DNA from: an uncultured Chloroflexia bacterium
Lineage (GTDB): Bacteria; Chloroflexota; Anaerolineae; CG2-30-64-16
Reading direction: 5' to 3'
DNA: 32,000 nt
Assembly: GCA_963774265.1 (NCBI GenBank)
Contig: CAVZDU010000002.1
Coordinates: forward strand, 753,340 to 785,339
Positions within the stretch are counted from its first letter, which is position 1. Each line of letters starts with the position of its first letter. This document shows, piece after piece, positions 3,301 through 23,219 of this stretch. Both the position numbers and the translations under genes were made by a program. The notes beneath the pieces are model-generated. The model ran no database searches and had not been told where the DNA came from. It saw nothing but the letters and a program-made list of their open reading frames with translations.

Positions 3301-3555
3301 ACGCTCGCCGGTCGCCTTGCGCAGATCGCTGAGCATGGTCCGCAGAATGTGCTGCGCCGCGGCCCGATCGTGGTCGGGCCAGAAGAGGGCCAGCAGGTGA
3401 TCACGGGTCAGCGGACGGTCATGCGCGGCAAGATAGAAGACGAGCGCCCGGTTCTTGCGGCGCACTTTCGCCAGCGGTTGGCCGGCCATGCATAATTGCG
3501 GCGCGCCGAAGAGTGTAATGGAAAATAGCTGCGATTCCTGTGTCACCCTTTTCAC
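370..3555 (-). CDS. SARP/AfsR-type transcriptional regulator (winged-helix + BTAD + P-loop ATPase + TPR-like repeats); C-terminus apparently frame-shifted
   Basis: 1061-aa ORF. The N-terminus carries SARP/BTAD motifs (LFGAPQL..RKNRALVFYLA..LLALFWPD; DLYRGPFLEGF..DDW; LHYLNGDRAGAVRRFE..LGVPP). These are followed by Walker A GEPGIGKTRLAEEF, Walker B-like CLFLDDLHWAD and long TPR-like helical repeats. The last ~65 codons of the called frame are R/P/G-rich nonsense. The neighbouring frame reads a plausible helical tail ending at 378. Confidence 0.8.
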   Translation of the reverse strand: MKRVTQESQLFSITLFGAPQLCMAGQPLAKVRRKNRALVFYLAAHDRPLTRDHLLALFWPDHDRAAAQHILRTMLSDLRKATGERLYVEDETLRLASDTFVDARTFAAALESPHGRALGEADAPALLAALDLYRGPFLEGFTLADSPEFDDWTASERDRYRIMAIRGFVRAAHIHEGLRDYGASLQALERGLAFDPMQEDLQRDAMRLHYLNGDRAGAVRRFEALCKVLGDELGVPPMPETRALYDAIITDTLAASPAVPQAAPAARAAERLRAPTGRRAAATPDALPFVGRSAELSTLRGLAGSGKLILIAGEPGIGKTRLAEEFIGRSVQDAPPVAVLRGIGHELEQGLPYHPIMDALRTLLALPEWPAWRRELDLAPLWLADVIRLVPELQTSFPAVPPQAQPADETRVWASLLRFLQALGRRCMVCLFLDDLHWADEATIGWLGYAARSQQAAAAGPILLATTRPVDDRSRLATLVRDLLRHDLLAQLSLEALPPSEVHRVAEHLSPTQSKALAEWLNLHAEGNPYFLTELVRLARQNGSLSSDGKIDPAVLAAQLVLPPTIQSLIQSRLLRLPENARHLLRSAAAVGQHFDFELVRQVAFASEDEALEALEQLQGVGLLRPYAPEVLTFDHNLTLQVVVQDMGEMRLRHLHRRVAEVLERTHRDRPDAAGLIARHFLDGHAPERAAPHAYRAGQYAASLAAWVEAMAHYESALAAAPSPSQQALIYLDLGFARFHKGDFASATADFQTAVRLAGAIGSLSVEEAAYLALSMSLFPQTRYADSIALGRQLRAAGPPELAACAEFIWGSSLVLDSAHPVEAEYHLREAEKLLDGPSAFASAITRPQVKYALAGALGQQGRFAEAIALYRSAFDLARSDERQLDLLRRILLHNNLAYYLHLVGDPEASEQIQAGIRLARERGSLSHLAYLYSTAGEIALAGGDVDAADDYFIQGLDLARQVPVPERIAGLTANLGLVAKRRGQDELAGQRFRDAARSRGQHWRLASGRTDPHLACPPTAAGRRAPPPAGSPPGSRAGQLWAPARGNRPPGTVALTRLNA

Positions 3556-11745: not shown

Positions 11746-11929
11746 ACCCAGCCGGGGCGCGGTGGGTCAAGCGGGGGCGAGCCGGCGTCTTTGGTCGCAG
11801 GAAACGGCTTTGCGGTCATAGTGGCTTGTGGTAACATTTATCCCAGCCAGCCTAAAGCCCCAGCTATCTGACCACCACCGAGGTCTGATCAGATCGCGGT
11901 TTCTCTCGACTTTCCGCCAGGATCGGGTC

Positions 11930-12661
11930 ATGAGTGCCGAAAACACCCAGTTCGACATCTTCCTCTCCCACAACGGTGCGGACAAGCCCGCCGTTGAGGC
12001 GCTCGCGCAACGACTGCTGGCGGCCGGGTTCAAGCCCTGGCTGGACTCCTGGAACCTGATCCCCGGCGACCCCTGGCAGGAAGGACTTGAGGAGGCGCTG
12101 GACACCTGCGGCACTTGCGCCGTGTTCCTGGGCCCCTCCGGCGTCGGCCCCTGGCACAACGAGGAAATGCGCGTCGCGCTGGACCGCCGCGCCCACGACC
12201 CCACCCGCAGCTTCCGGGTGATCCCCGTCCTGCTCCCGGGCGCCAACCCTGCTGACTCGGCTACACTCCCGCGTTTCCTGAGCCGAATGACCTGGGTGGA
12301 TTTCCGCGGCGGGCTGGATGATGCCGAAGCGTTTCGCCGCCTGGTGGCAGGCATACGCGGCGTCGCACCCGGCCCCGGCGCATCCACCGGCGCCAGGGCA
12401 ACGCCGCCAGCATCAGCCAGCGCGCCCACCTCGCAAGCCCTGACCTCCACCCCGCGCTGGCTGCTGGAAGCAGAGCTGACCCGTCTTCGGGCCCAATACG
12501 ACACCTGGAGCCGGCGCATTGCGGCCCTCGACGCCGACATCGGCCGGGCGTTGGGCAACCTGGAGAAGCAAGTGTTGGAAGAACGCCGGGCCGAAGTGGC
12601 TGCCGAGCGCCAGAAGGTCGCCGACCAGATGCAGGAGATCGAGGCTAAACTGAACACCTGA
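11930..12661 (+). CDS. TIR-domain protein with a C-terminal coiled coil (satellite 1 of the TIR-STAND locus)
   Basis: 243 aa from ATG 11930. TIR_2-like FDIFLSHNGADK..GFKPWLDSWNLIPGDPW..AVFLGPSGVGPWHNEEMRVAL..RVIPVLLPG..WVDFRGG (11951..12358). A P/A/S/T linker follows, then the coil LLEAELTRLRAQYDTWSRRIAALDADIGRALGNLEKQVLEERRAEVAAERQKVADQMQEIEAKL (12452..12658). The longer track ORF from GTG 11828 adds a non-protein-like leader. Confidence 0.85.
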   Translation: MSAENTQFDIFLSHNGADKPAVEALAQRLLAAGFKPWLDSWNLIPGDPWQEGLEEALDTCGTCAVFLGPSGVGPWHNEEMRVALDRRAHDPTRSFRVIPVLLPGANPADSATLPRFLSRMTWVDFRGGLDDAEAFRRLVAGIRGVAPGPGASTGARATPPASASAPTSQALTSTPRWLLEAELTRLRAQYDTWSRRIAALDADIGRALGNLEKQVLEERRAEVAAERQKVADQMQEIEAKLNT

Positions 12662-12676
12662 TAGTGACGAGCTGCC

Positions 12677-13519
12677 ATGCCGGACCAAGCGCCACGCTAC
12701 GAAGTCTTCCTGTCGCACAACAGCGCCGATAAAGCGGCCGTTGAGGACATCGCGCGCCGGCTGATCGCGGCTGGCCTCCAGCCTTTTCTGGACCAGTGGC
12801 ACCTGATCCCTGGCCAGCCGTGGATGGAAAGTGTAGAGAACGCACTGGCGGATAGCGCGAGCGTAGCCATCTTCGTTGGACCGTCGGGGATCAGCCCGTG
12901 GCACAACGAGGAGATGCGCGCGGCGCTCGATGAAGCGGTCCGCACGCGCGACGACTATCGGGTGATTCCTGTGCTCCTGCCCGGCGCTGACGAGACTGCG
13001 GTGGCACGTTTCCTGGCGCGACGGACATGGGTGGATTTCCGCGCCGGGCTCGACGACACCGAAGCCTTTCAACGCCTGGTCGCGGGCATCCAGGGCCAGG
13101 CTATTGACATCGGCCAATACCGGCTGCCCGATGAGCCGGCACCCTACCGCGGCCTGCTCCCCTTTGAGGCAGAGCACGCCCGCTTCTTCTTCGGCCGCGA
13201 CGCTGATATTGCGAGACTGATAGAGAAGCTAGGGCGGCAGTCCTTCGTTGCTGTCGTAGGTGCGTCGGGCAGCGGCAAATCCTCCCTGGTCAAAGCTGGT
13301 CTGTTGCCCAGACTGAAAGCCAACGCCTTGACCGACAGTGGACGCTGGCATGTATTGACGATGACTCCAGGCAGCCAGCCGCTCCCGCGCGTTGGCCGGT
13401 CAGCTTGCCACCTTCGTGCCCCCGCTCGACCGGCCGGACGCGGCCGACAAACTGGCCAGCCGCCTGGCCGAGCGGACAGACGGCTTGCGCACAACCCTGA
13501 CCGCCTTGCTGGCCGATAA
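12677..13519 (+). CDS. ORF piece 1 of the TIR-STAND-WD40 gene (TIR + Walker A); real coding ends near 13388
   Basis: Track ORF of 280 aa. Sequence after ...TMTPGSQPLP turns into R/A/G/P-rich nonsense, while frame 0 continues the protein. Confidence 0.75.
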   Translation: MPDQAPRYEVFLSHNSADKAAVEDIARRLIAAGLQPFLDQWHLIPGQPWMESVENALADSASVAIFVGPSGISPWHNEEMRAALDEAVRTRDDYRVIPVLLPGADETAVARFLARRTWVDFRAGLDDTEAFQRLVAGIQGQAIDIGQYRLPDEPAPYRGLLPFEAEHARFFFGRDADIARLIEKLGRQSFVAVVGASGSGKSSLVKAGLLPRLKANALTDSGRWHVLTMTPGSQPLPRVGRSACHLRAPARPAGRGRQTGQPPGRADRRLAHNPDRLAGR

Positions 13520-16500
13520 GCCGCGCCCTGCCCTGCTCTTCGTGGACCAGTTCGAGGAGCTTTTCACCCTCTGCCGCGGACGGGCCGGAGCACTGCCGAA
13601 TGGCGGCCGAGCAGTTCATCGCCAACCTGGCCGATGCCGCGGAGCGGGGCGACGGCCAGATTCGAGTCGTCCTCACCCTCCGCGCCGATTTCCTCGACCG
13701 CTGCCTGGCCTACCCTGACCTGCGTAAGTTGTTGGAAGATCGCCAACTGCTGCTGGGTCCCCTGGCCCAAGCCGATCTGCGCGACGCCATCGTGCGTCCC
13801 GCCCAACAGGTCGGCGCGTTCCTGGAAAAGGGCCTGGTCAATGCCATCCTGGCTGACGTCGGCGACGAGCCGGGCAACCTGCCACTGGTGCAGCACGCCC
13901 TCCACGAGCTGTGGCTGGCCCGCCGCGGCCCGTGGCTGACCCTGGACGCCTACGAGGCCAGCGGCGGCGTGGCGGGGGCGCTCGGTCGCCGCGCTCAGGC
14001 CACCTACGATGCCCTGCCACCAGAACAGCAGATCATCGCGCGCAACATCCTCCTGCGCCTTGCCACGCTAGGCGAAGGAGTCAGCGACACCCGGCGGCGG
14101 GCCGAGCGCGCGGAACTCTACCCGGTTGGCGTCGATCCGGCGCAGGTCAATGCCGTCATCCAAGCACTCTCGGGGCCGGACGCGCGCCTGCTTGTGACCG
14201 ATGAAGACACCGTTGACATGGCCCACGAGGCGCTGATCCAGGGGTGGAGCGCCTTACGCGGCTGGCTCGAGGCGAGTCGTGAAGCGTTGCGCACGCAGCA
14301 CCGGCTGACGGAGGCGGCCAACGAGTGGGGACGCGATCGAGACGAAAGCTACCTCTACCGTGGCGTACGGTTGGCAGAGATTGAGGAATGGGCCGCAGTG
14401 CACGGCCGCGGGATGAACGCGCTGGAAGCGGAATTTGTCCGGATAAGCGTTGCGATGCGTGATCGCGAAGCCCTGCGTGAAGATGAACGTCGGCGACGCG
14501 AATTGGAGCAGGCGCAAGCCCTGGCCCGTGAGCAACAGCAACGGGCAGAGGCCCAGAAAGCTTCAGCGATACGCCTGCGCCAGCGCGCCTTGCTGGCGGG
14601 CATGATCGGCTTAGTCGCATTGGTCTTTGCGTTCTTTGCGATCAGATTTGGTCTGCAGGCGCAGGCCAATGCCAACCGAGCGCGCACGCTTGAGCAATAT
14701 GCAAATGAAAAAGCGGATGACTTGCAAGTCGCCCTCGTCGGAGAGCGGGAAGCTCTCATTCGAGAGCAGGATGCTCTCTCCCAGACAGTGAAGACTCTGG
14801 ACCTCCTCAGCACTCGTGAAGTTGAGGCGCGCGCGGCGCAAGCGACTGCTGAATTCGCGAGAGTTGAGGAGGCTGAGGCCCGTGAGATGGCGGTAGACGA
14901 GCGCAACCGCGCCGAAGAACAGGTGCGCGTGGCCCGCAGCCGCCAGTTCGCCACCTATGCTGAAGCGGCATGGCCGGCTCTGCCCCAGCGCAGCCTGCTG
15001 CTCGGGGTCGAGGCGCTCCGCCAGACGCTGGATGCGGGGGAGCCGTCCGTCCCCGCGGCCGAAGACGTGGTGCGCCAGGCGCTGGTTAGCTTTAGCGGCC
15101 AGACCCTGGGCGGCCACCAGGGCGGCGTTACCGTCGCGGCCATTAGCCCTGACGGCCGCTGGTTGGCGTCCGGCGGCGGCAGCTTGTTCAGTCAAAAGGG
15201 TGATACTAACCTTCACTGGTGGGACCTTGAGGCCCCCGATCCGGCAGTCAGCCACCAGGTGATCCCTTTGGGCGACGGTTTCCTGTATCATGCTCGCTTC
15301 AGCCCGGACGCGCATTGGCTGGTGGGCAGCACGTTGGAACGGCAGGAGAATGAGCTGCGTGTGGCATCGCATCTATGGAAAGTCAGCGCCGCCGGCCTGC
15401 GGTCCACGTCGTGGCTCTCGTCGACCCTACCGATCGCCTTTAGCGCCGACGGCCGATGGTTGGTCAGCAGCCAGGGCGGGCTGCTGGGCGGAGAATCCTC
15501 TGGCCTGCTCCTGTGGGACATGATGGCGGTACCCCCCACCTCCAACACGTTGATGTCAGCTCCCCTGACGGTCTTGTCCGGGTTTGAGACAGACCAGCGT
15601 TGGCTTGTGGCCAGCGGCGCGGACGGCCGGCTCTACCTGTGGGACCTCCTCGCGCTGAGCCCCACGGCTGCTCCGGTCTCGCTGCCGGCTATGGGGGAAG
15701 TGAAGCAGGTTGCGGCCAGCCGCGATGGCCGGTGGCTGGCCGCGAGCCGTGCGGCTGGTCCGGTACACGTCTGGAATCTGGCCCGGCCGGATGCTCCCCC
15801 GACTGCCCTGGATGCCGGCATAGAAGTGGATAAGCTCGCGTTCAGCCCGAACGGCCGTTGGCTGCTCGTCCAGCCGCAGGAAGGCAGCATCTCGCTGTGG
15901 CGCCTGGAAGATCCTGGCCCCGTCTCGCCATCGCTGCTGCTATCCGGCCGGTTCTATGGCAGCCTCCAGATTGCCTTCAGCCCTGATAGCCGCTGGCTGG
16001 CGGTAGCCGTCATGGGGGTCGCGCCTCGCGTCTTGGATATGAGAGCCCCGGACCCGCCTGCCAGCGAGCTCGTGCTGACCGGCCAGTCGTGCGGGGGGCT
16101 GCTCGTCATCAGCGCGGACAGCCGTTGGTTGGTGGCTGTCGACGGCGCCCAAACCTGCATCTGGGACCTTGCCGCGAACCTCTCCGGCCAGGACCCGGTC
16201 GTCCTGCGCGGCCGGGAATCCAGCAACATGTCGCCATCGATCAGCCAGGCTGGTCGATGGCTGGCGGTCGGCGGCAGTGGGATGGTGCAACTGCACGATC
16301 TCACGCAGCCTTTGCCTGTGCCGCCGGGCACACTGCGCAGCACCCACCGCTCGGATATCGAATGGTTCGGCGTCACCCAGGACGGCCACTGGCTGGTCAC
16401 GGCCGACGACTATGACACGCGGCTTTGGGATTTGACCGGCCCGGCCATCTCGCGCGTCATCACCACCACCACCGGCTACGGCAATAAGTCCCCCACCCTC

Positions 16501-17550
16501 AGCCCGGATCGCCGCTGGCTGATCTTCGAGGGGGCCGACGGCGCCATCTATCGCACGGACATGCAGGCAGCCGATCCGGTTGCCGGCATAGGTAAGCTCT
16601 CCGGCCCCGTCAGCAACGTCCAGCGCATCCACGTCGACCGTGATAGCCGGGAGATCGTGGCTCTGGCGGCCGACGCGAAGCTCTATCGCTGGCGGCTCGC
16701 CGAGCCCGACCGTCAGCCCGAGGTCCAGGCCCTGCCCGGCGGTGACAGCAGCATCGGTGACTCGCGGATAAGCCCCGACAACCGCTGGGTCGTCATGGGA
16801 TTCCGCGTGCCCGTGCTCTTCGTCGGCGTCGCCAATCAGACGCTGCTGTGGGATACGGACGCCGCGGCGGGCGCTGGCCCCTACAATGTCAAGGCGGAGC
16901 AATCGGCCACCAGCGCCGTGGCCTTCAGCGCCGACAGCCGCACCCTGTTCACCGCCAGCACCGACGGCGCCGTGCGTGCCTGGGACTTGGCTGCGCCTGA
17001 TCCAACGGTCGATCCGCGGCTGCTCCGGGGCAATCCCTACCTGGTGACCGCCCTGGCCGCCAGTCCCGACGGGCGCTGGCTGGTAGCCGGCACGGGCTGC
17101 CCGCTCATCATCGGGGAGTGCGATCACTCGGTTCGCCTCTGGGACCTGGCACTGGCTGATCCAGGCGCGCCGCCGCTGATCCTGCGGGGGCACGCGGCCG
17201 ATATCCGGGGTCTGGCGTTCAGCAGCGACGGTCGCTGGCTGGTCACGGGAGATAGTAGCAGTGTTCTGCGCTTGTGGGACCTGGCCGCTGCGCAGCCCAG
17301 CGCCACCGTGCGCCAACTGCCGGGTGACGCGGGCGACGTGTCCTATTTTGCCTTCAGCGCGGACGATCTGACACTGATCAGCGCGAGCCAGGATGGCATC
17401 ATCCGTTTTGCGCCCCTGCGCGCCGAATCTCTCCTCGCCGCGGCCTGCCGCGCTGTGGGCCGCAACCTGTCGGTCGAGGAGTGGCAGCGCTATTTCCCTA
17501 GCGAGGACTATCGTCCCACCTGCAGCCAATGGCCTGACGCGTTGTGGTGA
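12677..17550 (+). CDS. TIR - STAND P-loop NTPase (nSTAND/NACHT-like) - TM helix - WD40-repeat protein; single gene interrupted by two 1-nt frame breaks (~1623 aa if bridged)
   Basis: Three consecutive frames carry a colinear protein. Segment 12677..~13388: TIR, PYRGLLPFEAEHARFFFGRD, Walker A GASGSGKSS at 13259..13285. Segment ~13392..~13578: LAGQLATFVPP...RPALLFVDQFEELFTLC, the Walker B. Segment ~13579..17550: DGPEHCRMAAEQFIANL...RVVLTLRADFLDRC...HEALIQGWSALRGWLE, a hydrophobic helix, at least 15 blades of [FI]S[PA]DGRWL type, and the conserved tail RNLSVEEWQRYFP..Y.PTC. Confidence 0.85.
13600..17550 (+). CDS. ORF piece 3 of the TIR-STAND-WD40 gene (NTPase C-terminal half, TM helix, WD40 array)
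   Basis: Track ORF of 1316 aa. This frame is already open and protein-like from ~13579 (DGPEHCR before the listed Met). Confidence 0.85.
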   Translation: MAAEQFIANLADAAERGDGQIRVVLTLRADFLDRCLAYPDLRKLLEDRQLLLGPLAQADLRDAIVRPAQQVGAFLEKGLVNAILADVGDEPGNLPLVQHALHELWLARRGPWLTLDAYEASGGVAGALGRRAQATYDALPPEQQIIARNILLRLATLGEGVSDTRRRAERAELYPVGVDPAQVNAVIQALSGPDARLLVTDEDTVDMAHEALIQGWSALRGWLEASREALRTQHRLTEAANEWGRDRDESYLYRGVRLAEIEEWAAVHGRGMNALEAEFVRISVAMRDREALREDERRRRELEQAQALAREQQQRAEAQKASAIRLRQRALLAGMIGLVALVFAFFAIRFGLQAQANANRARTLEQYANEKADDLQVALVGEREALIREQDALSQTVKTLDLLSTREVEARAAQATAEFARVEEAEAREMAVDERNRAEEQVRVARSRQFATYAEAAWPALPQRSLLLGVEALRQTLDAGEPSVPAAEDVVRQALVSFSGQTLGGHQGGVTVAAISPDGRWLASGGGSLFSQKGDTNLHWWDLEAPDPAVSHQVIPLGDGFLYHARFSPDAHWLVGSTLERQENELRVASHLWKVSAAGLRSTSWLSSTLPIAFSADGRWLVSSQGGLLGGESSGLLLWDMMAVPPTSNTLMSAPLTVLSGFETDQRWLVASGADGRLYLWDLLALSPTAAPVSLPAMGEVKQVAASRDGRWLAASRAAGPVHVWNLARPDAPPTALDAGIEVDKLAFSPNGRWLLVQPQEGSISLWRLEDPGPVSPSLLLSGRFYGSLQIAFSPDSRWLAVAVMGVAPRVLDMRAPDPPASELVLTGQSCGGLLVISADSRWLVAVDGAQTCIWDLAANLSGQDPVVLRGRESSNMSPSISQAGRWLAVGGSGMVQLHDLTQPLPVPPGTLRSTHRSDIEWFGVTQDGHWLVTADDYDTRLWDLTGPAISRVITTTTGYGNKSPTLSPDRRWLIFEGADGAIYRTDMQAADPVAGIGKLSGPVSNVQRIHVDRDSREIVALAADAKLYRWRLAEPDRQPEVQALPGGDSSIGDSRISPDNRWVVMGFRVPVLFVGVANQTLLWDTDAAAGAGPYNVKAEQSATSAVAFSADSRTLFTASTDGAVRAWDLAAPDPTVDPRLLRGNPYLVTALAASPDGRWLVAGTGCPLIIGECDHSVRLWDLALADPGAPPLILRGHAADIRGLAFSSDGRWLVTGDSSSVLRLWDLAAAQPSATVRQLPGDAGDVSYFAFSADDLTLISASQDGIIRFAPLRAESLLAAACRAVGRNLSVEEWQRYFPSEDYRPTCSQWPDALW

Positions 17551-17613
17551 TCTACCGCGGTGACGGTGGCGGAGAGGATCAGGCTACGAACCATCAACTG
17601 AGAGGGTCCGAAT

Positions 17614-18184
17614 ATGCCTATCGACCAGGGGTCAGCCGAGGATATGCACCTGAGGACGCAACTGGACGAGCTGCAGCGGCGCTATGATGTCCTGACAAGA
17701 CGCATCGCGGCTCTTGACATCGACATAGGTCGCGAATTGGACTCCGAGCGCAAGCTTATCCTTCAAGAGCGTCGAGCGGATCTGGAGGCTGAACGGGATC
17801 AAATCCTAAACGACCTGGTAGAATTGGATTCCGCCGTCCGCGATTCGCGACGGAGTGACACGGTCGCGCCGCCGCGTCCTCACCCAACCTCTGCGCCAAC
17901 AACTCGTGGACGCGGTTCTGCGGATTCCGGCATCCGATTCCTTTGAGGGAAGAACAGCGTTCGTGCTGGGCCTACCTGCATCACTGAGTCGCAGTCCCAC
18001 CAACGCACGCGCGGACCTCGATGCGATCTTCGGGCAACTCGATGGACTGGGCCGGTTGGATTCGGGTCAGTGGCCGCTGCTTGTGGTGATCGACAACATT
18101 CTGACCTATGCCCGTGGTTTCGAAGTTCACGGGATCATCAGCCAGGTCAGGCAGGGCCTGGAAGACGCCTACCGCGGCCATTGA
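17614..18184 (+). CDS. Coiled-coil + unassigned helical-domain protein (satellite 2); two overlapping ORFs that look like one gene with a 1-nt frame break (~189 aa if bridged)
   Basis: ATG 17614 sits 8 nt after GAGGG. ORF 17614..17946 gives the coil LRTQLDELQRRYDVLTRRIAALDIDIGRELDSERKLILQERRADLEAERDQILNDLVELDS and then P/R/T-rich nonsense. The frame open from 17822 (track ORF 17855..18184) reads ...RRVLTQPLRQQLVDAVLRIPASDSFEGRTAFVLGLPASLSRSPTNARADLDAIFGQLDGLGRLDSGQWPLLVVIDNILTYARGFEVHGIISQVRQGLEDAYRGH. GTG 17855 has no convincing RBS. Confidence 0.7.
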
Positions 18185-18220
18185 TGTACGGTCAGCGGCG
18201 CGTACGCCTCCCGCCCGCGG

Positions 18221-18250
18221 TTGTATCGCACGATACGACTTCACGGTCAT
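18221..18250 (+). repeat. 30-bp direct repeat R1 with a palindromic core
   Basis: ttgtatcgcacgatacgacttcacggtcat is 27/30 identical to R2. Confidence 0.8.
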
Positions 18251-18424
18251 CCCACCTGGGCTATCATGGCGACACTAATGTCGCCGCAGTCGGACGCCAT
18301 CACACCCTGCACCTAACGTTGAGCCCAGGGCCACGTCCGCAAGGGCGGCGCCGCAGGCTCCCTGCGCATCGCCTGCCCAGATGCCTTTGTCAGCACCGCG
18401 ACCCGCCCCCTGTGTATTCCCGTC

Positions 18425-18628
18425 TTAGTCGATGCCGTATCGGCGCAGGGTGCGGCGGACGGTGTTCGTGTGGACGCGTTCGGAGAGCGCGATTTGGCTG
18501 AGGGTGCGGCCGGCGGCGAAGGCGGCGAGGATCTGGCTCGGCTGCAGGAGGCCGGCGCGGGTGGCGAATGAGGGGGTGAGGGTGTAGGTGAACGAGAATT
18601 GTATCGTACGATACGCCTTTACGGTCAT
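18425..18628 (-). CDS. Small helix-turn-helix protein, possibly a recombinase/transposase C-terminal remnant
   Basis: 67 aa. PSQILAAFAAGRTLSQIALSERVHTNTVRRTLRRYGID looks like an HTH_7/resolvase-type helix-turn-helix. The first 20 residues are not convincing. Its ATG lies inside repeat R2. Confidence 0.35.
   Translation of the reverse strand: MTVKAYRTIQFSFTYTLTPSFATRAGLLQPSQILAAFAAGRTLSQIALSERVHTNTVRRTLRRYGID
18599..18628 (+). repeat. 30-bp direct repeat R2 with a perfect 14-bp palindrome GTATCGTACGATAC
   Basis: ttgtatcgtacgatacgcctttacggtcat; the palindrome is at 18601..18614. Confidence 0.8.
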
Positions 18629-18641
18629 AACGAGCTGTGAT

Positions 18642-20090
18642 GTAACTGTTCAGCGTTGGGGTAAGGGAGTTTAGATGGGTGCGGGTGCGCAGGCGGTCTG
18701 GGGTAGTTGGAGGGCGCGCAGACACTCGGTCAGCGGATTCAGGCGGCGGGCCTGCCAGGTACCGAACACACTGGCCAAGGTGAAGCGGGTATCGGTGCCG
18801 GCGGCGGAGCGCGAGCCGCCGCTGATTTTGCGCAGCACGACCAAGGGCCGAATGCTGCGCTCAGCCAGATTATTATCGGCTGGCACCTCCGGCAGGAGTA
18901 CAAACTGAAATAACTCGTCTTGGTGGCGCAGCAGGCGTTTCGCCAGGACCGCACAGGGCTGGGCGGGCTCCAGCGCATACTGCTGACCCAGGACACAGGC
19001 GCGGGTGTGCAGGCGCAGATACTGCTGGGTCCGGGCCGCGGCGCTGGGCGTCGGGTGCTCGTGGAGCCAGGTCTGGGCGTCCTCGTAGAGTTGGCGGACG
19101 GCCGCGGCCCACGCCAGCACCTCCGCCGTCGCCCCGTGGGCCTCTTTGAGGGCATGCAGGTCGCGCAACAGATGCACCCAGCAGCGCTGATGGTGGCCGG
19201 GGATCGGGTTGTAGGCCGCATAGAAATCCGTGACCAGACAACCCCGCCAGTCGGGACCCAAGACCCGCTGCGGCACGAAGTGGCTGCGGCCGGGATCGTA
19301 CGCGTAGTAGCGCACGGCCGCCGGACCTGCGGTCACAAAAGCCCAGGCCCAACCGTTCTGACCGCACTCGCGCCAGCTCGTTTCGTCGCCATGCACTACC
19401 GGGCTGGCCTGTACGGCCCGTTTGAGTTGCTCCGCGAGCGGCTGCAAGTGCTGCTGGACATCGTGCGCCAATTCGGCGATCTCCCCAATGCTGAGGTGCA
19501 GGCCATGCAGCGTCTGCAAGTAACTCTGCACCAGCCGCACCGGCAGTCGCAACGTCGTGCGCAAGTACGCCACCACGCTGGCGATGCGCACCCCAATCCG
19601 CCCCTGCCCAAATACCTGACCGCTCAGATCCAGTTGGGGGCTGCGCCAGCGCACACAGTGCGGACACCAGCGCTTCACCACCTGATGCTCGATCACTTCC
19701 ACCGGCTGCGGCGGCGGCAACTCCACCACTTCACGGCTATAGTCGAGGCTCTCGCCGTGCAAAGGATACTGGCAGTCCGGACAGCGCGCCAACGCATGCC
19801 GCTCGACACGCGTCGCAACCATCCGCTTGCGCGACGTGTTGTGCTCGGCCGCGCGCTTCTTACGCGGCGCGGGCGGGGTCTGAGCCTTCTGGCGATTCGG
19901 CTTTACGAACGCCGGCGGATCACCCCGCTGCTGCAGCTGCGCTTCCAGCTCATTGATCCGCGCTAGGGCGAGCGCTAACTGCTCCCGCAACTCGGCATTC
20001 GCCGCTCTCAGGCGCTCGAATGCCTGCTCTTCATCAAGGGTCATGCCCTAATCATGCCATAGCCTGTCAAGGGTAACGCTGAACAGTTAC
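18642..20090 (-). mobile_element. IS66-family insertion sequence (single-ORF type, 1449 bp)
   Basis: A perfect 16-bp terminal inverted repeat GTAACTGTTCAGCGTT lies at 18642..18657, with its complement at 20075..20090. It is flanked by the direct 8-bp duplication GCTGTGAT (18634..18641 and 20091..20098). An 8-bp TSD is typical of IS66. Confidence 0.9.
18671..20044 (-). CDS. IS66-family transposase
   Basis: 457 aa. N-terminal leucine-zipper-like coil; zinc-finger-like CPDCQYPL...CPHCVRW; then HGDETSW, VTDFYAAY, QRCWVHLLRD and the hallmark DNNLAERSIRPLVVLRKISGGSRS. Confidence 0.92.
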   Translation of the reverse strand: MTLDEEQAFERLRAANAELREQLALALARINELEAQLQQRGDPPAFVKPNRQKAQTPPAPRKKRAAEHNTSRKRMVATRVERHALARCPDCQYPLHGESLDYSREVVELPPPQPVEVIEHQVVKRWCPHCVRWRSPQLDLSGQVFGQGRIGVRIASVVAYLRTTLRLPVRLVQSYLQTLHGLHLSIGEIAELAHDVQQHLQPLAEQLKRAVQASPVVHGDETSWRECGQNGWAWAFVTAGPAAVRYYAYDPGRSHFVPQRVLGPDWRGCLVTDFYAAYNPIPGHHQRCWVHLLRDLHALKEAHGATAEVLAWAAAVRQLYEDAQTWLHEHPTPSAAARTQQYLRLHTRACVLGQQYALEPAQPCAVLAKRLLRHQDELFQFVLLPEVPADNNLAERSIRPLVVLRKISGGSRSAAGTDTRFTLASVFGTWQARRLNPLTECLRALQLPQTACAPAPI

Positions 20091-20789: not shown

Positions 20790-21333
20790 GTGATCATTGA
20801 CATAGACACAGTATTTGGCTTCTGGCCATCTCGGAACGTAGATATATCCCTGGTTCGTTTGATCCAGGTGATGGAACAGCATGCCATCGGCTCTGCCTGC
20901 ACTTGCTCAGCGCGTGGCGTGTGCTACCTCTACCTGGCTGGCAATGAAGAGACCATCGCCCAAACCCATGATAGGCCAGGACTGCTTCCAGTCCTGACTG
21001 TCGACCCTCGGCGTTACCTGGGCGTCCGTGATGAGATCCGGCGTCGCAAAGCAGAGGGTTACCGGCTTTTTCGGCTCTTTCCGCAGTATCGCGGAGCACA
21101 TTTATATCTCGACGCGTTTTATGATCGGCCCGGGATCGTTGGAGATCGCGGCTTCCGCACTCGGCTGGGAGCGACTGGTTTTTGGGTCGCATGCACCACT
21201 CGAGTATGTCGGTGCGGCATTGGACCTTGTCACCCATTCCGATCTGCCGGACATGCAAAAGCGAGCGATCTTGGGCGACAATGTGGCCAGGCTCCTGAAT
21301 TCGGAAGGAGGAACCGCCAGTGAAGATCATTGA
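20790..21333 (+). pseudogene. Amidohydrolase (Amidohydro_2-type) remnant with an internal deletion and frame change
   Basis: The N-part VIIDIDTVFGFWPS...LLPVLTVDPRRY..EIRRRKAEGYRLFRLFP joins, in another frame, the C-part NIYISTRF..GWERLVFGSHAPLEY...QKRAILGDNVARLL. The total is ~181 codons against 244-249 aa for the intact paralogues at 27641 and 28392, so the central metal-binding part is missing. Confidence 0.65.
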
Positions 21334-21915
21334 TACTCACGGGCACCTTGGCCTGTGGCCATTTCCTCAGGTCGATGTCTCGCCCGAACAAATGGTAGCA
21401 GGTCTAAAGAGGTCGGAAATCGCTCAGATCATTATCTCCTCCGGCTTGGCTATCGTCTATGATTTTCGCGAAGGGAACCGTCGCTTAGCCGATGAAATAG
21501 AGCCACATCCTGAGCTCTTTGGGTACGTCACGCTCAATATGAACTACCCGAAGGAGGGTGAAGGTGAGCTAGACTTGTACCTTGAGCGATCCAAGTTCGT
21601 GGGGGCCGAGATCCATCCTATGTGCGCGCAATGGCGCACATGGGCGGAGATGTCTGGGCCGAGGGGATAGCAGTAGCGAGCGAAGCGCCCAACATCTATC
21701 TGGATCCTTGCGCGTCCTGGGCCGATGCCGACAAGATCAGTTTGGCTGTCAAATCGCTTGGCGCTGACCGCATGCTCTTCGGGTCGGATTATACCCTTTT
21801 CGATCCTAACCAAACCCTTGGTATGCTGCGAGATGCTGATCTGACACCACAGCAGCGAGATGCGATTGCGCATGGTAATGCCGAGCGTCTTTTCACGCTG
21901 CCTGATGTAGGTTGA
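21320..21915 (+). pseudogene. Second amidohydrolase (Amidohydro_2-type) remnant with an internal deletion and frame change
   Basis: VKIIDTHGHLGLWPF...LFGYVTLN...FVGAEIHP is followed, in another frame, by YVRAMAHMGGDVW...APNIYLDPC...GADRMLFGSDYTLF...AIAHGNAERLF. The total is ~198 codons, with roughly 55 aa missing between the IHP and HMGG regions. Confidence 0.65.
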
Positions 21916-21934: not shown

Positions 21935-23219
21935 ATGACAAGCATCGATCTGCCGTATACCCCTGATCGTCACATCAACTTCACTCTGCCAAGCGGAATT
22001 CATGCCACAATCTGCGCACCCCATGTGCCATCGGTGCCTACAAATCCGAGGGCGCTTGTGGAACACGCGCTGGATAACCCGCTGCAAAGCAGTCGACTTG
22101 AGGCGCTGGTTTCGGCGCATGACCGGGTGCTGATTATCTGCGATGACAACACACGTCCCCTGCCAGCGCGTCTTGTACTGCTTCCCGTGTTGGCTCGCCT
22201 GAATAAGGCGGGGGTGCCTGATCGGCAGATAGAAGTTCTTTTTGCAGCCGGAACCCACCGGCCAATGTCGCCTCTTGAGATGCAGGACAAAGTGGGTGCC
22301 GAGGTCTTCGGGCGGACAGCGTGTCACAACCATGACGCGTTTGACCGTTCGCAGTTGCGACACTACGGCAGATTCTCTGGAAGGAGTGGATGTTTGGCTC
22401 AACAGCCGTGTGAGTGAGGCGTCGTTTGTGATGGCTGTTGGCAACATTGCCCCCCATGCGATTGTCGGTTATGGGGGTGGAGCAAAAATCCTCTACCCGG
22501 GCGTGGCTGGCAGTGATACGATTGCAGGGTTCCACGTTACCTTCAGCCTAGATCCAATCAACTATTATGGTTTTTTCCCGACACCGGCCCGAACCAGTAT
22601 CCGTCATCTAGCCGACGTGGCTGGGCTTGAGTTTACTGTCAATACAGTGTTGACGGATAACCGCGAGGTCGTAGATGTCTTTGCGGGCCAACATGAAGCT
22701 GTGCTCACGGCAGGTGTGGGGGTTGCGCGACATATCTACGGCATTCCTTCTTCCCGCCTGCATGATGTGGTCGTAGTCAGCTCCTATCCCGGCTGGATCG
22801 ATTTCTGGCAAGGCTGCCGCGGTGCCTTTGCCGGCGCCACCCTGGCGAAACCCGGGGGAGACATTATAGTCGTCACAGCATGTCCTGAGGGTTCCTCCCA
22901 TACTTATCCCAATCATCCAGACTATGTCGGAATGCCCACAGCCTTACTTGCAGACCATCTCCGATCTGGCGACTTGCCAGATCCAGTCTGCGCAGCTGGA
23001 GCGATCAAGGTTGGATACCTCCGCGAGCAGTACCGGGTATCGATTGTATCTGAGGGCTTGAAATCGGATGAGGTACGGCGCATGGGCTTTGATCGGTACC
23101 CCACCGTTGAAGCGGCGCTAGAGGTCGTTCTCTCCCGCCGAACCGACTTGAAGGAGATTGGAGTGATGCCTTATGGCGGCGCGTTCTGCTATCGCAATGC
23201 CTCGAACCCAAATCAGTAA
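21935..23219 (+). CDS. LarA-like nickel-pincer-dependent racemase/epimerase (DUF2088), one frame break near 22365..22372 (~427 aa if bridged)
   Basis: ICDDNTRPLP, FAAGTHRPMS and NHDAFD..QLRHYG occur in frame A (ORF 21935..22417). They continue as DSLEGVDVWLNSRV..ASFVMAVGNIAPHAIVGYGGGAKILYPGVAG... in frame B (ORF 22242..23219). The bridged length matches LarA-type proteins. Confidence 0.75.

What the first reader, a model, noticed from the sequence alone, without database searches (positions are those of the whole stretch)
17644..17832. Homologous coiled-coil module at the C-terminus of gene 1 and the N-terminus of gene 3, absent from the STAND protein
An ungapped by-eye alignment compares gene 1 (12452..12658), EAELTRLRAQYDTWSRRIAALDADIGRALGNLEKQVLEERRAEVAAERQKVADQMQEIEAKL, with gene 3 (17644..17832), RTQLDELQRRYDVLTRRIAALDIDIGRELDSERKLILQERRADLEAERDQILNDLVELDSAV. 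About 26 of 62 positions are identical. These include the 12-residue core RRIAALDxDIGR (12512..12547 and 17698..17733) and ERRAxxxAER. The module sits at opposite termini of two otherwise unrelated small proteins that flank the sensor. This is the pattern expected of a homotypic adaptor, analogous in logic to Death/CARD/EAD-type effector-associated domains, that tethers a TIR effector to another domain. The coiled-coil stretch of the STAND protein (around 14440..14560) does not carry this motif.
Basis: partly seen in the sequence, partly recalled or inferred. Interest (0 to 1): 0.7.

Follow-up and report, generated by a model that had tools for sequence, protein, structure and literature searches.

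The report
EAD9-like helical-hairpin adaptor, two copies
Two small proteins flanking a bacterial TIR-STAND immune sensor share a real 65-residue helical-hairpin module from a conserved family related to the described adaptor domain EAD9, which probably links effector proteins into one complex, so it is a good example of a known idea, not a new one.

Summary
The C-terminus of gene 1 (12464..12652) and the N-terminus of gene 3 (17647..17832) share 27/61 identical residues (BLASTP E=1e-15). The alignment score lies 17-20 SD above shuffles, including heptad-preserving ones. The STAND protein has no copy.

It is not generic coiled coil. A 5-sequence profile found 256 clusters among 1.84 billion proteins, with the module almost always at an N- or C-terminus. 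Its fusion partners are TIR, CHAT, caspase, FGE-sulfatase, STAND NTPases and EAD1/5/7/8. AlphaFold2 predicts a two-helix antiparallel hairpin (pLDDT 96.6).

The only specific Pfam relative is EAD9 (PF19962): 37/90 modules match at E<=0.01 and 3/89 reach about the threshold. Both window copies fall below it. In 7 of 8 related loci with enough DNA, two to five copies lie within a few kb, which is the described EAD coupling pattern.

- **Differences from the canonical pattern:** no copy sits on the core NTPase, and the window pair is no closer than the family median (44%). Gene 1's orthologue locus has only one copy.
- **Other links in the locus:** gene 1's TIR is 59% identical to the sensor's TIR. 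Gene 3 is probably a frameshifted module plus a possibly EAD5-like domain.

No physical interaction was tested.

The parts
12464..12652 (+). Module copy 1: EAD9-like helical hairpin at the extreme C-terminus of gene 1 (aa 213-275 of 277)
   Evidence: The family HMM matches at E=1.6e-26 over profile positions 2-64. BLASTP against copy 2 gives E=1e-15. Pfam EAD9 gives only 13 bits and aligns out of register.
17647..17832 (+). Module copy 2: EAD9-like helical hairpin at the N-terminus of gene 3 (aa 12-73)
   Evidence: The family HMM matches at E=1.6e-30. Pfam EAD9 gives 17-19 bits, E=0.001-0.005, colinear over profile positions 5-62 of 62 but below the gathering score of 25. The AF2 model has pLDDT 96.6, with helices 2-30 and 34-64.
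11828..12661 (+). Gene 1: TIR domain (about 11957..12346) + linker + module. The catalytic-type Glu lies in PWHNEEM, starting at 12149. The true start codon may be the ATG at 11930.
   Evidence: Pfam TIR_2 matches at E=2.4e-27 over aa 44-173. PDB sequence hits are the bacterial TIR NADases PdTIR and AbTIR, and the W..E motif aligns. The orthologue P0026 is 74% identical.
12677..17550 (+). Gene 2: TIR-nSTAND1-(coiled/TM segment 14587..14655)-WD40 sensor. It is one gene with two frame breaks, at about 13385 and about 13574, and it carries no module copy.
   Evidence: Pfam finds TIR_2 and nSTAND1 profile positions 1-88 in the first ORF, and nSTAND1 positions 137-375 plus WD40 in the last ORF. tblastn with an intact homologue runs colinearly through frames +2, +3 and +1. 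There is no module hit.
17614..18184 (+). Gene 3, reconstructed: module ORF 17614..17946 plus C-terminal-domain ORF 17855..18184 in another frame. The probable cause is a 2-nt deletion near 17877. The C-terminal domain of about 100 aa is possibly EAD5-like.
   Evidence: The three-frame translation and the comparison with L005 show CGCGTGTCC in L005 against CGCGTCC in the window. Only two homologues of the C-terminal domain were found. There is no Pfam or NCBIfam hit. Similarity to EAD5 of P0073/L010 is weak: BLASTP E=0.01, hhalign E=0.0033 with probability 9.6%.
18642..20090 (-). IS66-family insertion sequence that bounds the locus on the right. It is not part of the system but may have cut it off from further partners.
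   Evidence: Pfam DDE_Tnp_IS66 matches at E=1e-47 together with zf-IS66. Perfect 16-nt inverted repeats lie at 18642-18657 and 20075-20090.

Best explanation
The shared stretch is a small, autonomous, non-enzymatic domain: a two-helix antiparallel hairpin of about 65 residues. Its signature is HLxxQLxELQxRYDTLTKRIAALDTDIGRELDSERKLVLxERRxxLxxERDxV..IExQL. It belongs to a conserved family that is a divergent, mostly unannotated branch of Effector-associated domain 9 (EAD9, Pfam PF19962). The related loci whose source organism is named come from Anaerolineae. Like other EADs, it most likely acts as a protein-protein coupling handle: hairpins on different proteins associate, probably as helical bundles, and bring the attached domains into one complex.

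In this locus it would join the TIR protein (gene 1, a NADase-type TIR with the catalytic-type Glu retained) to gene 3. Gene 3 seems to be an adaptor-adaptor protein, made of the module plus a second small domain that may be EAD5-like. The sensor, a TIR-nSTAND1-WD40 NTPase, has no hairpin. Its likely link to the pair is gene 1's TIR, a close paralogue (59% identity) of the sensor's own N-terminal TIR, which could co-assemble with the TIR cluster formed when the STAND oligomerises.

Shown: the homology, the specificity of the family, terminal placement, fusion partners, multi-copy loci, the predicted fold and the TIR paralogy. Inferred: the hairpin-hairpin contact, the TIR-TIR recruitment and the order of events.
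For: - **Real homology:** BLASTP E=1e-15; z=17-20 against shuffles.
- **A specific family:** 256 clusters at E<=1e-3 and 129 at E<=1e-10 among 1.84e9 proteins, with strongly conserved polar positions such as D27, R51 and E62.
- **Terminal placement:** 68 C-terminal, 56 N-terminal, 18 stand-alone and 15 internal.
- **Fusion partners among 120 members:** CHAT 9, TIR_2 9, AAA_16/22/35 6-7 each, EAD1 6, EAD7 5, FGE-sulfatase 4, nSTAND1 3, Peptidase_C25 3, EAD8 2, caspase 2, kinase 2. EAD5 is fused in P0073.
- **Kinship to EAD9:** 37/90 isolated modules hit EAD9 at E<=0.01 against at most 5/90 for any other family. At E<=2e-5 EAD9 is the only family hit, by 3/89. The gene 3 alignment is colinear over EAD9 positions 5-62 of 62.
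- **Fold:** AF2 gives pLDDT 96.6 and pTM 0.81, with helix 2-30, a turn and helix 34-64. The closest PDB shapes are dimerising hairpins such as the ING4 dimerisation domain (TM 0.92), though without significant E-values.
- **Multi-copy loci:** L001 has 2, L002 2, L003 2, L004 3, L010 at least 3, L011 5 and L012 2. Typical pairs are EAD7+module, EAD8+module or EAD5+module alongside TIR+module or CHAT+module.
- **A matching arrangement elsewhere:** L011, like the window, has nSTAND1 and nSTAND1-WD40 genes without the module, surrounded by module-bearing effectors.
- **Conserved TIR link:** the gene 1 and gene 2 TIRs are 59% identical. The same holds in the gene 1 orthologue locus L006, at 58%, where TIR+module again lies directly upstream of a TIR-STAND gene.
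- **Published principle:** Kaur et al. 2020 define the EAD coupling principle (PMC7159879).
Against: - No interaction was measured or modelled. A natural tandem-module model had pTM 0.41 and showed two long helices rather than hairpins.
- Both window copies are below Pfam's EAD9 threshold.
- The window pair is only 44% identical, equal to the family median of 45%. Each copy ranks 95th and 139th of 167 for the other. Pairs in L001, L003 and L004 are 64-72% identical.
- The canonical EAD rule that one copy sits on the core NTPase is not met here.
- The gene 1 orthologue locus (L006-L009) has a single copy within +-10 kb.
- Gene 3 is frameshifted, next to an IS66 element, and its C-terminal domain has only two detectable homologues.
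Confidence: 0.6

Rival explanations
1. The hairpin is a self-association element. Each protein that carries it forms its own homodimer or oligomer, for example to pre-cluster TIR domains, which need oligomerisation to be active. Gene 1 and gene 3 do not bind each other, and their proximity reflects clustering in a defence island.
For: The gene 1 orthologue locus has only one copy within +-10 kb. The window pair is no closer than random family pairs. The closest structural shapes are homodimerising hairpins. Eighteen stand-alone module proteins exist.
Against: Seven of eight evaluable loci carry 2-5 copies on different proteins within a few kb. The partners form recurrent pairs of adaptor+module with effector+module. 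Within-locus pairs in L001, L003 and L004 fall in the top ~3% of family identities, which fits co-evolving partners.
Confidence: 0.2
2. The hairpin is a docking element for a shared partner that lacks the module, for example the activated nSTAND1 NTPase oligomer or its WD40 or coiled region. On this reading, all module-bearing effectors are recruited heterotypically to the sensor rather than to each other.
For: nSTAND1 genes without the module are neighbours in the window and in L011. nSTAND1 is also present in L006 and L010. The most conserved residues are polar and lie at the hairpin tip (DxDIGRxLD), which is unusual for a simple bundle interface.
Against: No STAND domain was seen among the genes scanned in L001-L004. 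Three family members have the module fused directly to nSTAND1, which fits homotypic logic better. There is no direct evidence for such a contact.
Confidence: 0.1
3. The locus is decaying. Gene 3 is a remnant, frameshifted and beside an IS66 element, and the sensor is a pseudogene with two frame breaks. The shared module would then be a relic with no current function here.
For: Frame breaks lie at about 13385, about 13574 and about 17877. An IS66 element lies at 18642..20090.
Against: Unrelated metabolic genes in the same window, LarA and an amidohydrolase, are also split by frame breaks. This points to assembly indels rather than locus-specific decay. All three breaks are clean single switches with conserved protein sequence on both sides.
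Confidence: 0.08
4. The similarity is chance, or generic coiled-coil (heptad) composition.
For: Isolated modules give scattered weak hits to unrelated coiled-coil families.
Against: E=1e-15. z=17 even against heptad-preserving shuffles. There is a sharply bounded family with invariant polar residues. The fold is predicted with high confidence.
Confidence: 0.01

Closest known systems
Effector-associated domain 9 (EAD9, Pfam PF19962; Kaur, Burroughs, Iyer & Aravind, eLife 2020, PMC7159879)
   Same: It is small (62 against 65 positions), all-alpha and non-enzymatic, and it sits at N- or C-termini. Copies occur on several proteins of one locus and are fused to effector or signalling domains and to NTPases. 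EAD9 is the only specific Pfam relative, and the alignment is colinear.
   Different: Both window copies, and most family members, score below Pfam's gathering threshold. No copy sits on the core NTPase here. EAD9 was described mainly on VMAP components of vWA-MoxR ternary systems, where it recruits signalling components. Here the module sits beside a TIR-nSTAND1-WD40 sensor and carries a TIR.
Other EADs (EAD1, EAD5, EAD7, EAD8) and the EAD-coupling principle
   Same: The logic is the same, and these domains are directly fused to the module in adaptor-adaptor proteins: P0009 with EAD1, P0010 and L003 with EAD7, L004, P0060 and P0051 with EAD8, and P0073/L010 with EAD5. Gene 3 appears to have this architecture.
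   Different: The sequence families and folds differ. Gene 3's second domain is not detectably any of them in Pfam, and its similarity to EAD5 is only weak.
MyD88-type adaptors and Death-fold (DD/CARD/PYD) homotypic signalling in animal innate immunity
   Same: One protein combines a TIR domain with a separate homotypic interaction handle. In principle this could bridge a TIR-bearing receptor to downstream components. This is an analogy from established knowledge.
   Different: The handle is a two-helix hairpin, not a six-helix Death fold, and there is no homology. Gene 1's TIR keeps the NADase-type glutamate, so it may be an enzyme rather than a scaffold.
Dimerising helical hairpins (e.g. ING4 N-terminal dimerisation domain, PDB 4afl)
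   Same: The predicted shape is nearly the same (TM 0.92, rmsd 0.9 A over 63 columns). Such hairpins pair into four-helix bundles.
   Different: There is no significant sequence or Foldseek E-value (0.14). The match reflects generic geometry and is not evidence of relatedness.

Membership tests
EAD9 (Pfam PF19962) | Sequence match at or above Pfam's gathering score (25 bits) | tested here: not met
   The gene 3 copy scores 16.9-18.9 bits (E=0.001-0.005). The gene 1 copy scores 13.1 bits and aligns out of register. At family level, 37/90 modules hit at E<=0.01 and 3/89 at about threshold level, with a best E of 1.3e-7.
EAD9 (Pfam PF19962) | EAD9 is the best and only specific profile relative, aligned colinearly over the full length | tested here: met
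   EAD9 positions 5-62 of 62 align to gene 3 residues 14-71. The next Pfam family is hit by at most 5/90 modules. No other family is hit at E<=2e-5.
Effector-associated domains (Kaur et al. 2020 criteria) | Small domain with no enzymatic features; all-alpha for EAD9 | tested here: met
   The module has 65 residues. AF2 predicts a helix-turn-helix hairpin with pLDDT 96.6. There is no catalytic-family hit.
Effector-associated domains (Kaur et al. 2020 criteria) | Located at the N- or C-terminus and fused to effector or signalling domains | tested here: met
   There are 68 C-terminal, 56 N-terminal and 15 internal occurrences. Fusion partners include TIR, CHAT, caspase, FGE-sulfatase and kinase.
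Effector-associated domains (Kaur et al. 2020 criteria) | A second copy encoded by an adjacent or nearby gene of the same locus | tested here: met
   The window has 2 copies 5 kb apart. Seven of 8 evaluable related loci have 2-5 copies. The exception is L006-L009.
Effector-associated domains (Kaur et al. 2020 criteria) | One copy fused to a core component (VMAP, iSTAND, GAP1, STAND NTPase) | tested here: not met
   The TIR-nSTAND1-WD40 protein has no copy. The same holds for the nSTAND1 genes of L011. Elsewhere, 3 of 120 family members carry nSTAND1 and others carry AAA_16/22/35.
Effector-associated domains (Kaur et al. 2020 criteria) | Copies in adjacent genes are closer to each other than to other family members | tested here: not met
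   The window pair is 44% identical, against a family median of 45%, with partner ranks 95 and 139 of 167. The criterion is met in L001 (72%), L003 (64%) and L004 (67%).
Effector-associated domains (Kaur et al. 2020 criteria) | Homotypic physical interaction between copies | not testable with these tools
   No multimer prediction is available. The tandem-module model was inconclusive, with pTM 0.41.
Death-like superfamily (DD/CARD/DED/PYD, bDLD) | Six-helix bundle fold | tested here: not met
   The predicted fold is a two-helix hairpin. The resemblance is in logic only.
EAD5 (Pfam PF19957), for the C-terminal domain of gene 3 | Profile match to EAD5 | tested here: inconclusive
   There is no Pfam hit even at E<=10. 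Similarity to the genuine EAD5 domains of P0073/L010 is weak but in register: BLASTP E=0.01, phmmer 9e-4 on 3 sequences, hhalign E=0.0033 with probability 9.6%.
TIR NADase (TIR_2, PF13676), for gene 1 | TIR fold match and the conserved catalytic-position Glu after the W of the WxxxE motif | tested here: met
   TIR_2 matches at E=2.4e-27. The alignment to AbTIR and PdTIR places PWHNEEM opposite DWTNYEL. That this Glu is catalytic in AbTIR and SARM1 comes from my own knowledge. Enzymatic activity was not tested.
nSTAND1 NTPase (PF20703), for gene 2 | Full-length profile match including the Walker A and B regions | tested here: met
   Profile positions 1-88 and 137-375 lie in two ORFs. The middle part, with LLFVDQFEELF, lies in a third frame and is colinear with an intact homologue. 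The gene carries two frame breaks.

The most novel reading that the evidence does not exclude
The locus may encode a bacterial relay of homotypic handles with MyD88-like logic. The activated TIR-nSTAND1-WD40 sensor would cluster its TIRs. These would recruit the paralogous TIR of gene 1. Gene 1's C-terminal hairpin would then recruit gene 3 by hairpin-hairpin pairing. Gene 3's second, possibly EAD5-like, domain would pass the signal to further effectors that carry that domain elsewhere in the genome. In this wiring the EAD9-like hairpin never touches the sensor and acts as a second-tier connector, which is not part of the published EAD scheme.
Probability: 0.2. Interest if true: 0.65.

Novelty: new member of a known kind. 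Interest (0 to 1): 0.4.

Why it matters
EADs were proposed from sequence analysis alone as the bacterial counterparts of Death/CARD-type adaptors. I found no experimental test in the papers I searched. This family offers a compact candidate for such a test. It is 65 residues long, its fold is predicted with confidence, and it comes with natural partner pairs such as TIR+module with EAD+module, CHAT+module and FGE-sulfatase+module.

The result also shows that Pfam's EAD9 model misses most of a branch of the family: about 96% of the modules tested fall below its threshold. Many TIR, CHAT and STAND accessory proteins therefore currently look as if they have only an anonymous coiled coil. For genome annotation, the practical gain is a better profile and the recognition of adaptor-adaptor proteins. 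For mechanism, the open question is how effectors connect to a STAND sensor that itself lacks the handle.

Tried and rejected
- **Word-indexed homologue searches** with the gene 3 module, and with a 90-sequence module alignment, gave only 3 and 10 short hits. The exhaustive profile search was needed.
- **The search for related loci** with the 90-sequence alignment failed because no stretch was conserved enough. With the 5-sequence alignment it gave only 3 genome loci.
- **Other libraries:** NCBIfam has no model for the module; the weak hits to slr1601 and sll0565 are probably generic. PADLOC gives nothing for gene 3 or for the STAND body.
- **Heterodimer proxy:** The natural tandem-module stretch of P0006/P0004 gave pTM 0.41 and two continuous helices, which neither supports nor refutes pairing.
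- **Foldseek against PDB** gave only generic hairpin matches with E>0.1.
- **Source contig:** exact look-ups of P0157 and of gene 1 from the ATG at 11930 found no record, and cluster look-up gave no names.
- **Published EAD9 sequences:** the supplement of Kaur et al. that is held as text does not mention EAD9 or EAD5, so no direct profile-profile test against the authors' alignment was possible.
- **N-terminal versus C-terminal pairing rule:** I considered whether N- and C-terminal copies form complementary subtypes. I rejected this because locus pairs are N+N (L001), C+C (L002, L004) or mixed (L011, window).
Full report

Yes. Gene 1 (11828..12661, 277 aa) and gene 3 (17614..17946, 110 aa) align without gaps over 61 residues, with 27 identities and 43 positives, at BLASTP E=1e-15. 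The RRIAALDxDIGR core is at the stated coordinates.

The local alignment score is 139. Composition-preserving shuffles give 29+-5.5 (z=20, maximum 54 in 5000). Shuffles that permute residues only within the same heptad register give 31.8+-6.3 (z=17). Heptad composition therefore does not explain the match.

A six-frame search of the window with the family profile finds exactly these two copies, at E=1.6e-30 and 1.6e-26; the next hit has E>5. tblastn agrees. Against the STAND protein the modules score 43 and 41, at the null level of 37.7+-4.9. The claim that the module is absent from the STAND protein therefore also holds.

**2. The genes around it**

- **Gene 1** is a TIR_2 domain (aa 44-173, E=2.4e-27) followed by a linker and the module at the very C-terminus. 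Its TIR matches solved bacterial TIR NADases (PdTIR, AbTIR), and its PWHNEEM motif aligns with AbTIR's DWTNYEL. From my own knowledge, that Glu is the catalytic one.
- **Gene 2** is one gene, TIR-nSTAND1-(coiled/TM-like segment 14587..14655)-WD40, spanning 12677..17550. It is split by two clean frame switches at about 13385 and about 13574. An intact 758-aa homologue aligns colinearly through frames +2, +3 and +1.
- **Gene 3** has the module at residues 12-73. A second ORF in another frame (17855..18184) encodes a domain of about 100 aa. Comparison with the only other locus that carries this domain (L005) suggests that the window lacks 2 nt (CGCGTGTCC against CGCGTCC) near 17877. Gene 3 is therefore probably module + linker + second domain.
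- **Assembly quality.** LarA and an amidohydrolase elsewhere in the window are also split by frame breaks. The breaks thus look like assembly indels rather than decay of this locus.
- **Right-hand boundary.** An IS66-family element (18642..20090) with perfect 16-nt inverted repeats bounds the locus on the right.
- **TIR paralogy.** The TIRs of gene 1 and gene 2 are 59% identical over 148 residues, at E=1e-53.

**3. What the module is**

A profile of the two window copies plus three close homologues (A1) was searched with HMMER against 1.84 billion representative proteins. It found 256 proteins at E<=1e-3 and 129 at E<=1e-10. The signature is sharp: HLxxQLxELQxRYDTLTKRIAALDTDIGRELDSERKLVLxERRxxLxxERDxV..IExQL, with near-invariant polar residues.

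Among the best 151 proteins, the module is C-terminal 68 times, N-terminal 56 times, stand-alone 18 times and internal 15 times. A few proteins carry two or three tandem copies.

Pfam scans of 120 full-length members give these counts:

| Pfam family | Members |
|---|---|
| CHAT | 9 |
| TIR_2 | 9 |
| AAA_16 / AAA_22 / AAA_35 | 7 / 7 / 6 |
| EAD1 | 6 |
| EAD7 | 5 |
| FGE-sulfatase | 4 |
| nSTAND1 | 3 |
| Peptidase_C25 | 3 |
| EAD8 | 2 |
| caspase | 2 |
| kinase | 2 |
| nSTAND2 | 2 |

AlphaFold2 with an 89-sequence alignment predicts helix 2-30, a three-residue turn and helix 34-64 (pLDDT 96.6, pTM 0.81). This is an antiparallel helical hairpin rather than one long coiled coil. The conserved DxDIGRxLD sits at the end of helix 1 and the turn. 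The nearest PDB shapes are dimerising hairpins, such as the ING4 dimerisation domain (TM 0.92) and designed hairpin homo-oligomers, but their E-values are not significant.

**4. Relation to known families**

The gene 3 copy gives a sub-threshold but full-length, colinear hit to Pfam EAD9 (PF19962): 17-19 bits against a gathering score of 25, over profile positions 5-62 of 62. The gene 1 copy does not give a useful hit (13 bits, out of register).

At family level the link is clear. Of 90 isolated modules, 37 hit EAD9 at E<=0.01, whereas no other Pfam family is hit by more than 5. At E<=2e-5, which is about the gathering score, EAD9 is the only family hit, by 3 of 89. NCBIfam and PADLOC have no model for the module.

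EAD9 is one of the effector-associated domains defined by Kaur et al. 2020. These are small non-enzymatic domains at protein termini. One copy lies on a core component and further copies on effector or signalling proteins encoded nearby, and the domains are proposed to couple components by homotypic interaction in the manner of Death-fold domains (PMC7159879). The module is thus best described as a divergent branch of EAD9 that the Pfam model largely misses. The genome loci that could be named are Anaerolineae MAGs.

**5. Does it behave like an EAD in genomes?**

I fetched loci through single module-bearing proteins or single pattern matches and then searched them in six frames.

| Locus | Module-bearing genes and context |
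|---|---|
| L001 | A small module protein next to an FGE-sulfatase gene; module+Big_5+CHAT |
| L002 | Two adjacent C-terminal copies |
| L003 | EAD7+module; a small module protein near a caspase gene |
| L004 | EAD8+module; TIR+module; a partial third copy |
| L010 | Module+EAD5 next to further EAD5 proteins, trypsin and EAD5+nSTAND1; two more module fragments |
| L011 | Five module-bearing genes within 15 kb (CHAT, FGE-sulfatase, a GAF-like protein and two others), around two nSTAND1 genes, one of them nSTAND1-WD40, that lack the module |
| L012 | Two adjacent copies on a 1.7-kb contig |
| L006-L009 | Locus of the gene 1 orthologue P0026 (74% identity); only one copy within +-10 kb |

The exception, L006-L009, is informative. 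TIR+module again lies directly upstream of a TIR-STAND gene (TIR-NB-ARC, followed by TIR-caspase and TIR-nSTAND1). Its TIR is again about 58% identical to the neighbouring STAND's TIR. The association of TIR+module with a TIR-STAND is therefore conserved, whereas the pairing with a gene 3-like partner is not.

Within-locus module identities are 72% (L001), 64% (L003), 67% (L004), 52% (L002) and 44% (window). The family-wide median is 45%, and only about 3% of pairs reach 64%. In the window, each copy ranks 95th and 139th of 167 as a relative of the other. The closest relatives of gene 1's copy are other TIR-linked copies, and those of gene 3's copy are N-terminal copies such as P0001 and P0007. 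The window pair thus consists of two different sub-lineages.

**6. Gene 3's second domain**

This domain has no Pfam or NCBIfam hit and only two detectable homologues. One family member with the same layout, P0073, carries a genuine EAD5 after the module (E=1e-21). Gene 3's domain aligns weakly but in register to that EAD5 and to the two other EAD5 copies of L010: BLASTP E=0.01, phmmer 9e-4 on three sequences, and hhalign E=0.0033 with probability 9.6%. I treat the EAD5-like assignment as a lead and not a result. No second copy of this domain exists in the window.

**7. Most likely mechanism**

The hairpin is a coupling handle. Hairpins on different proteins associate and assemble their cargo domains. 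In this locus that would tie a NADase-type TIR protein to an adaptor-adaptor protein.

Because the sensor has no hairpin, the most economical link to the sensor is the TIR-TIR paralogy, which is conserved in two loci with different STAND bodies. This gives a chain of sensor TIR, gene 1 TIR, gene 1 hairpin, gene 3 hairpin and gene 3 second domain. Every contact in this chain is inferred.

The main rival is that the hairpin only self-associates on each protein. Further rivals are that it docks on the nSTAND1 oligomer, or that the locus is decaying. The chance or composition explanation is excluded.

**8. Novelty and verdict**

However, the concept and the nearest family are already described, so I class this as a new member of a known kind, not a new kind.

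It differs from the published scheme in four ways. The copies score below the Pfam threshold. No copy sits on the core NTPase, and the same holds in L011. The two copies are no closer than the family median. A paralogous TIR is the probable link to the sensor.

Interest is moderate, at 0.4. The module would be a good and compact experimental test case for the still-untested EAD hypothesis, and an improved profile would annotate many anonymous "coiled coils" on TIR, CHAT and FGE-sulfatase proteins.

Noticed in passing
window 12677..17550 (breaks near 13385 and 13574): The TIR-nSTAND1-WD40 gene is split into three reading frames by two clean frame switches. An intact homologue (L006 15858..18134) aligns colinearly across them.
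   Followed up: yes
window 21320..21915 and 21935..23219: An amidohydrolase gene (Amidohydro_2 profile 56-126, then 176-288) and a LarA-like gene (Lar_N profile 4-140, then 135-196) are each split between overlapping ORFs in different frames. The assembly therefore seems prone to indels throughout, not only in the defence locus.
   Followed up: partly
window 18642..20090: An IS66-family insertion sequence: a transposase at 18671..20044 on the minus strand, flanked by perfect 16-nt inverted repeats (GTAACTGTTCAGCGTT / AACGCTGAACAGTTAC). It lies directly to the right of the defence locus.
   Followed up: partly
window 18220..18252 and 18598..18630: Two stretches of 33 nt share 27 identical positions (TTGTATCG.ACGATACG.C.T.ACGGTCAT). 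Each contains the reverse-complement start of a small minus-strand ORF (MTVKSYRAIQ... and MTVKAYRTIQ...). The second ORF (18425..18628) looks like a small helix-turn-helix protein. This may be a duplicated end of a mobile element.
   Followed up: no
window 12000..20000: G+C is 0.655-0.678 across the defence locus and the IS, against 0.54-0.61 in the flanks at 8-12 kb and 20-30 kb. This fits a horizontally acquired island.
   Followed up: no
window 11957..12346 and 12704..13081: The TIR of gene 1 and the N-terminal TIR of the sensor are close paralogues (59% identity, E=1e-53). Both keep the PWHNEEM motif. The same relation (57-61%) holds in the orthologous locus L006, between TIR+module and the neighbouring TIR-NB-ARC.
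   Followed up: yes
window 14587..14655: A hydrophobic, transmembrane-like segment (ALLAGMIGLVALVFAFFAIRFGL) lies inside the charged helical region between the nSTAND1 NTPase and the WD40 repeats of the sensor.
   Followed up: no
window 370..3555 (minus strand): A large SARP-type regulator (Trans_reg_C/BTAD + AAA_16 + TPR, 1061 aa) lies about 8 kb upstream of the defence locus.
   Followed up: no
L011 1..15151: Five module-bearing genes lie within 15 kb: a 798-aa GAF-like protein, a 452-aa protein, CHAT, a 338-aa protein and FGE-sulfatase. They surround two nSTAND1 genes that lack the module. This is the richest example of the family found here.
   Followed up: partly
P0004 (620 aa), P0005 (228 aa), P0006 (210 aa): These are natural tandem arrays of the module. 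P0004 is a ParA/MinD-like KGGVGR ATPase + two modules + TIR. In P0004 and P0006 the two tandem copies are of two distinct subtypes, in the same order.
   Followed up: partly
L010 6434..10878: This is a textbook EAD5 locus: module+EAD5, an EAD5 small protein, Trypsin_2 fragments and EAD5+nSTAND1. The gene calls are fragmented, which suggests frameshifts in that contig too.
   Followed up: partly
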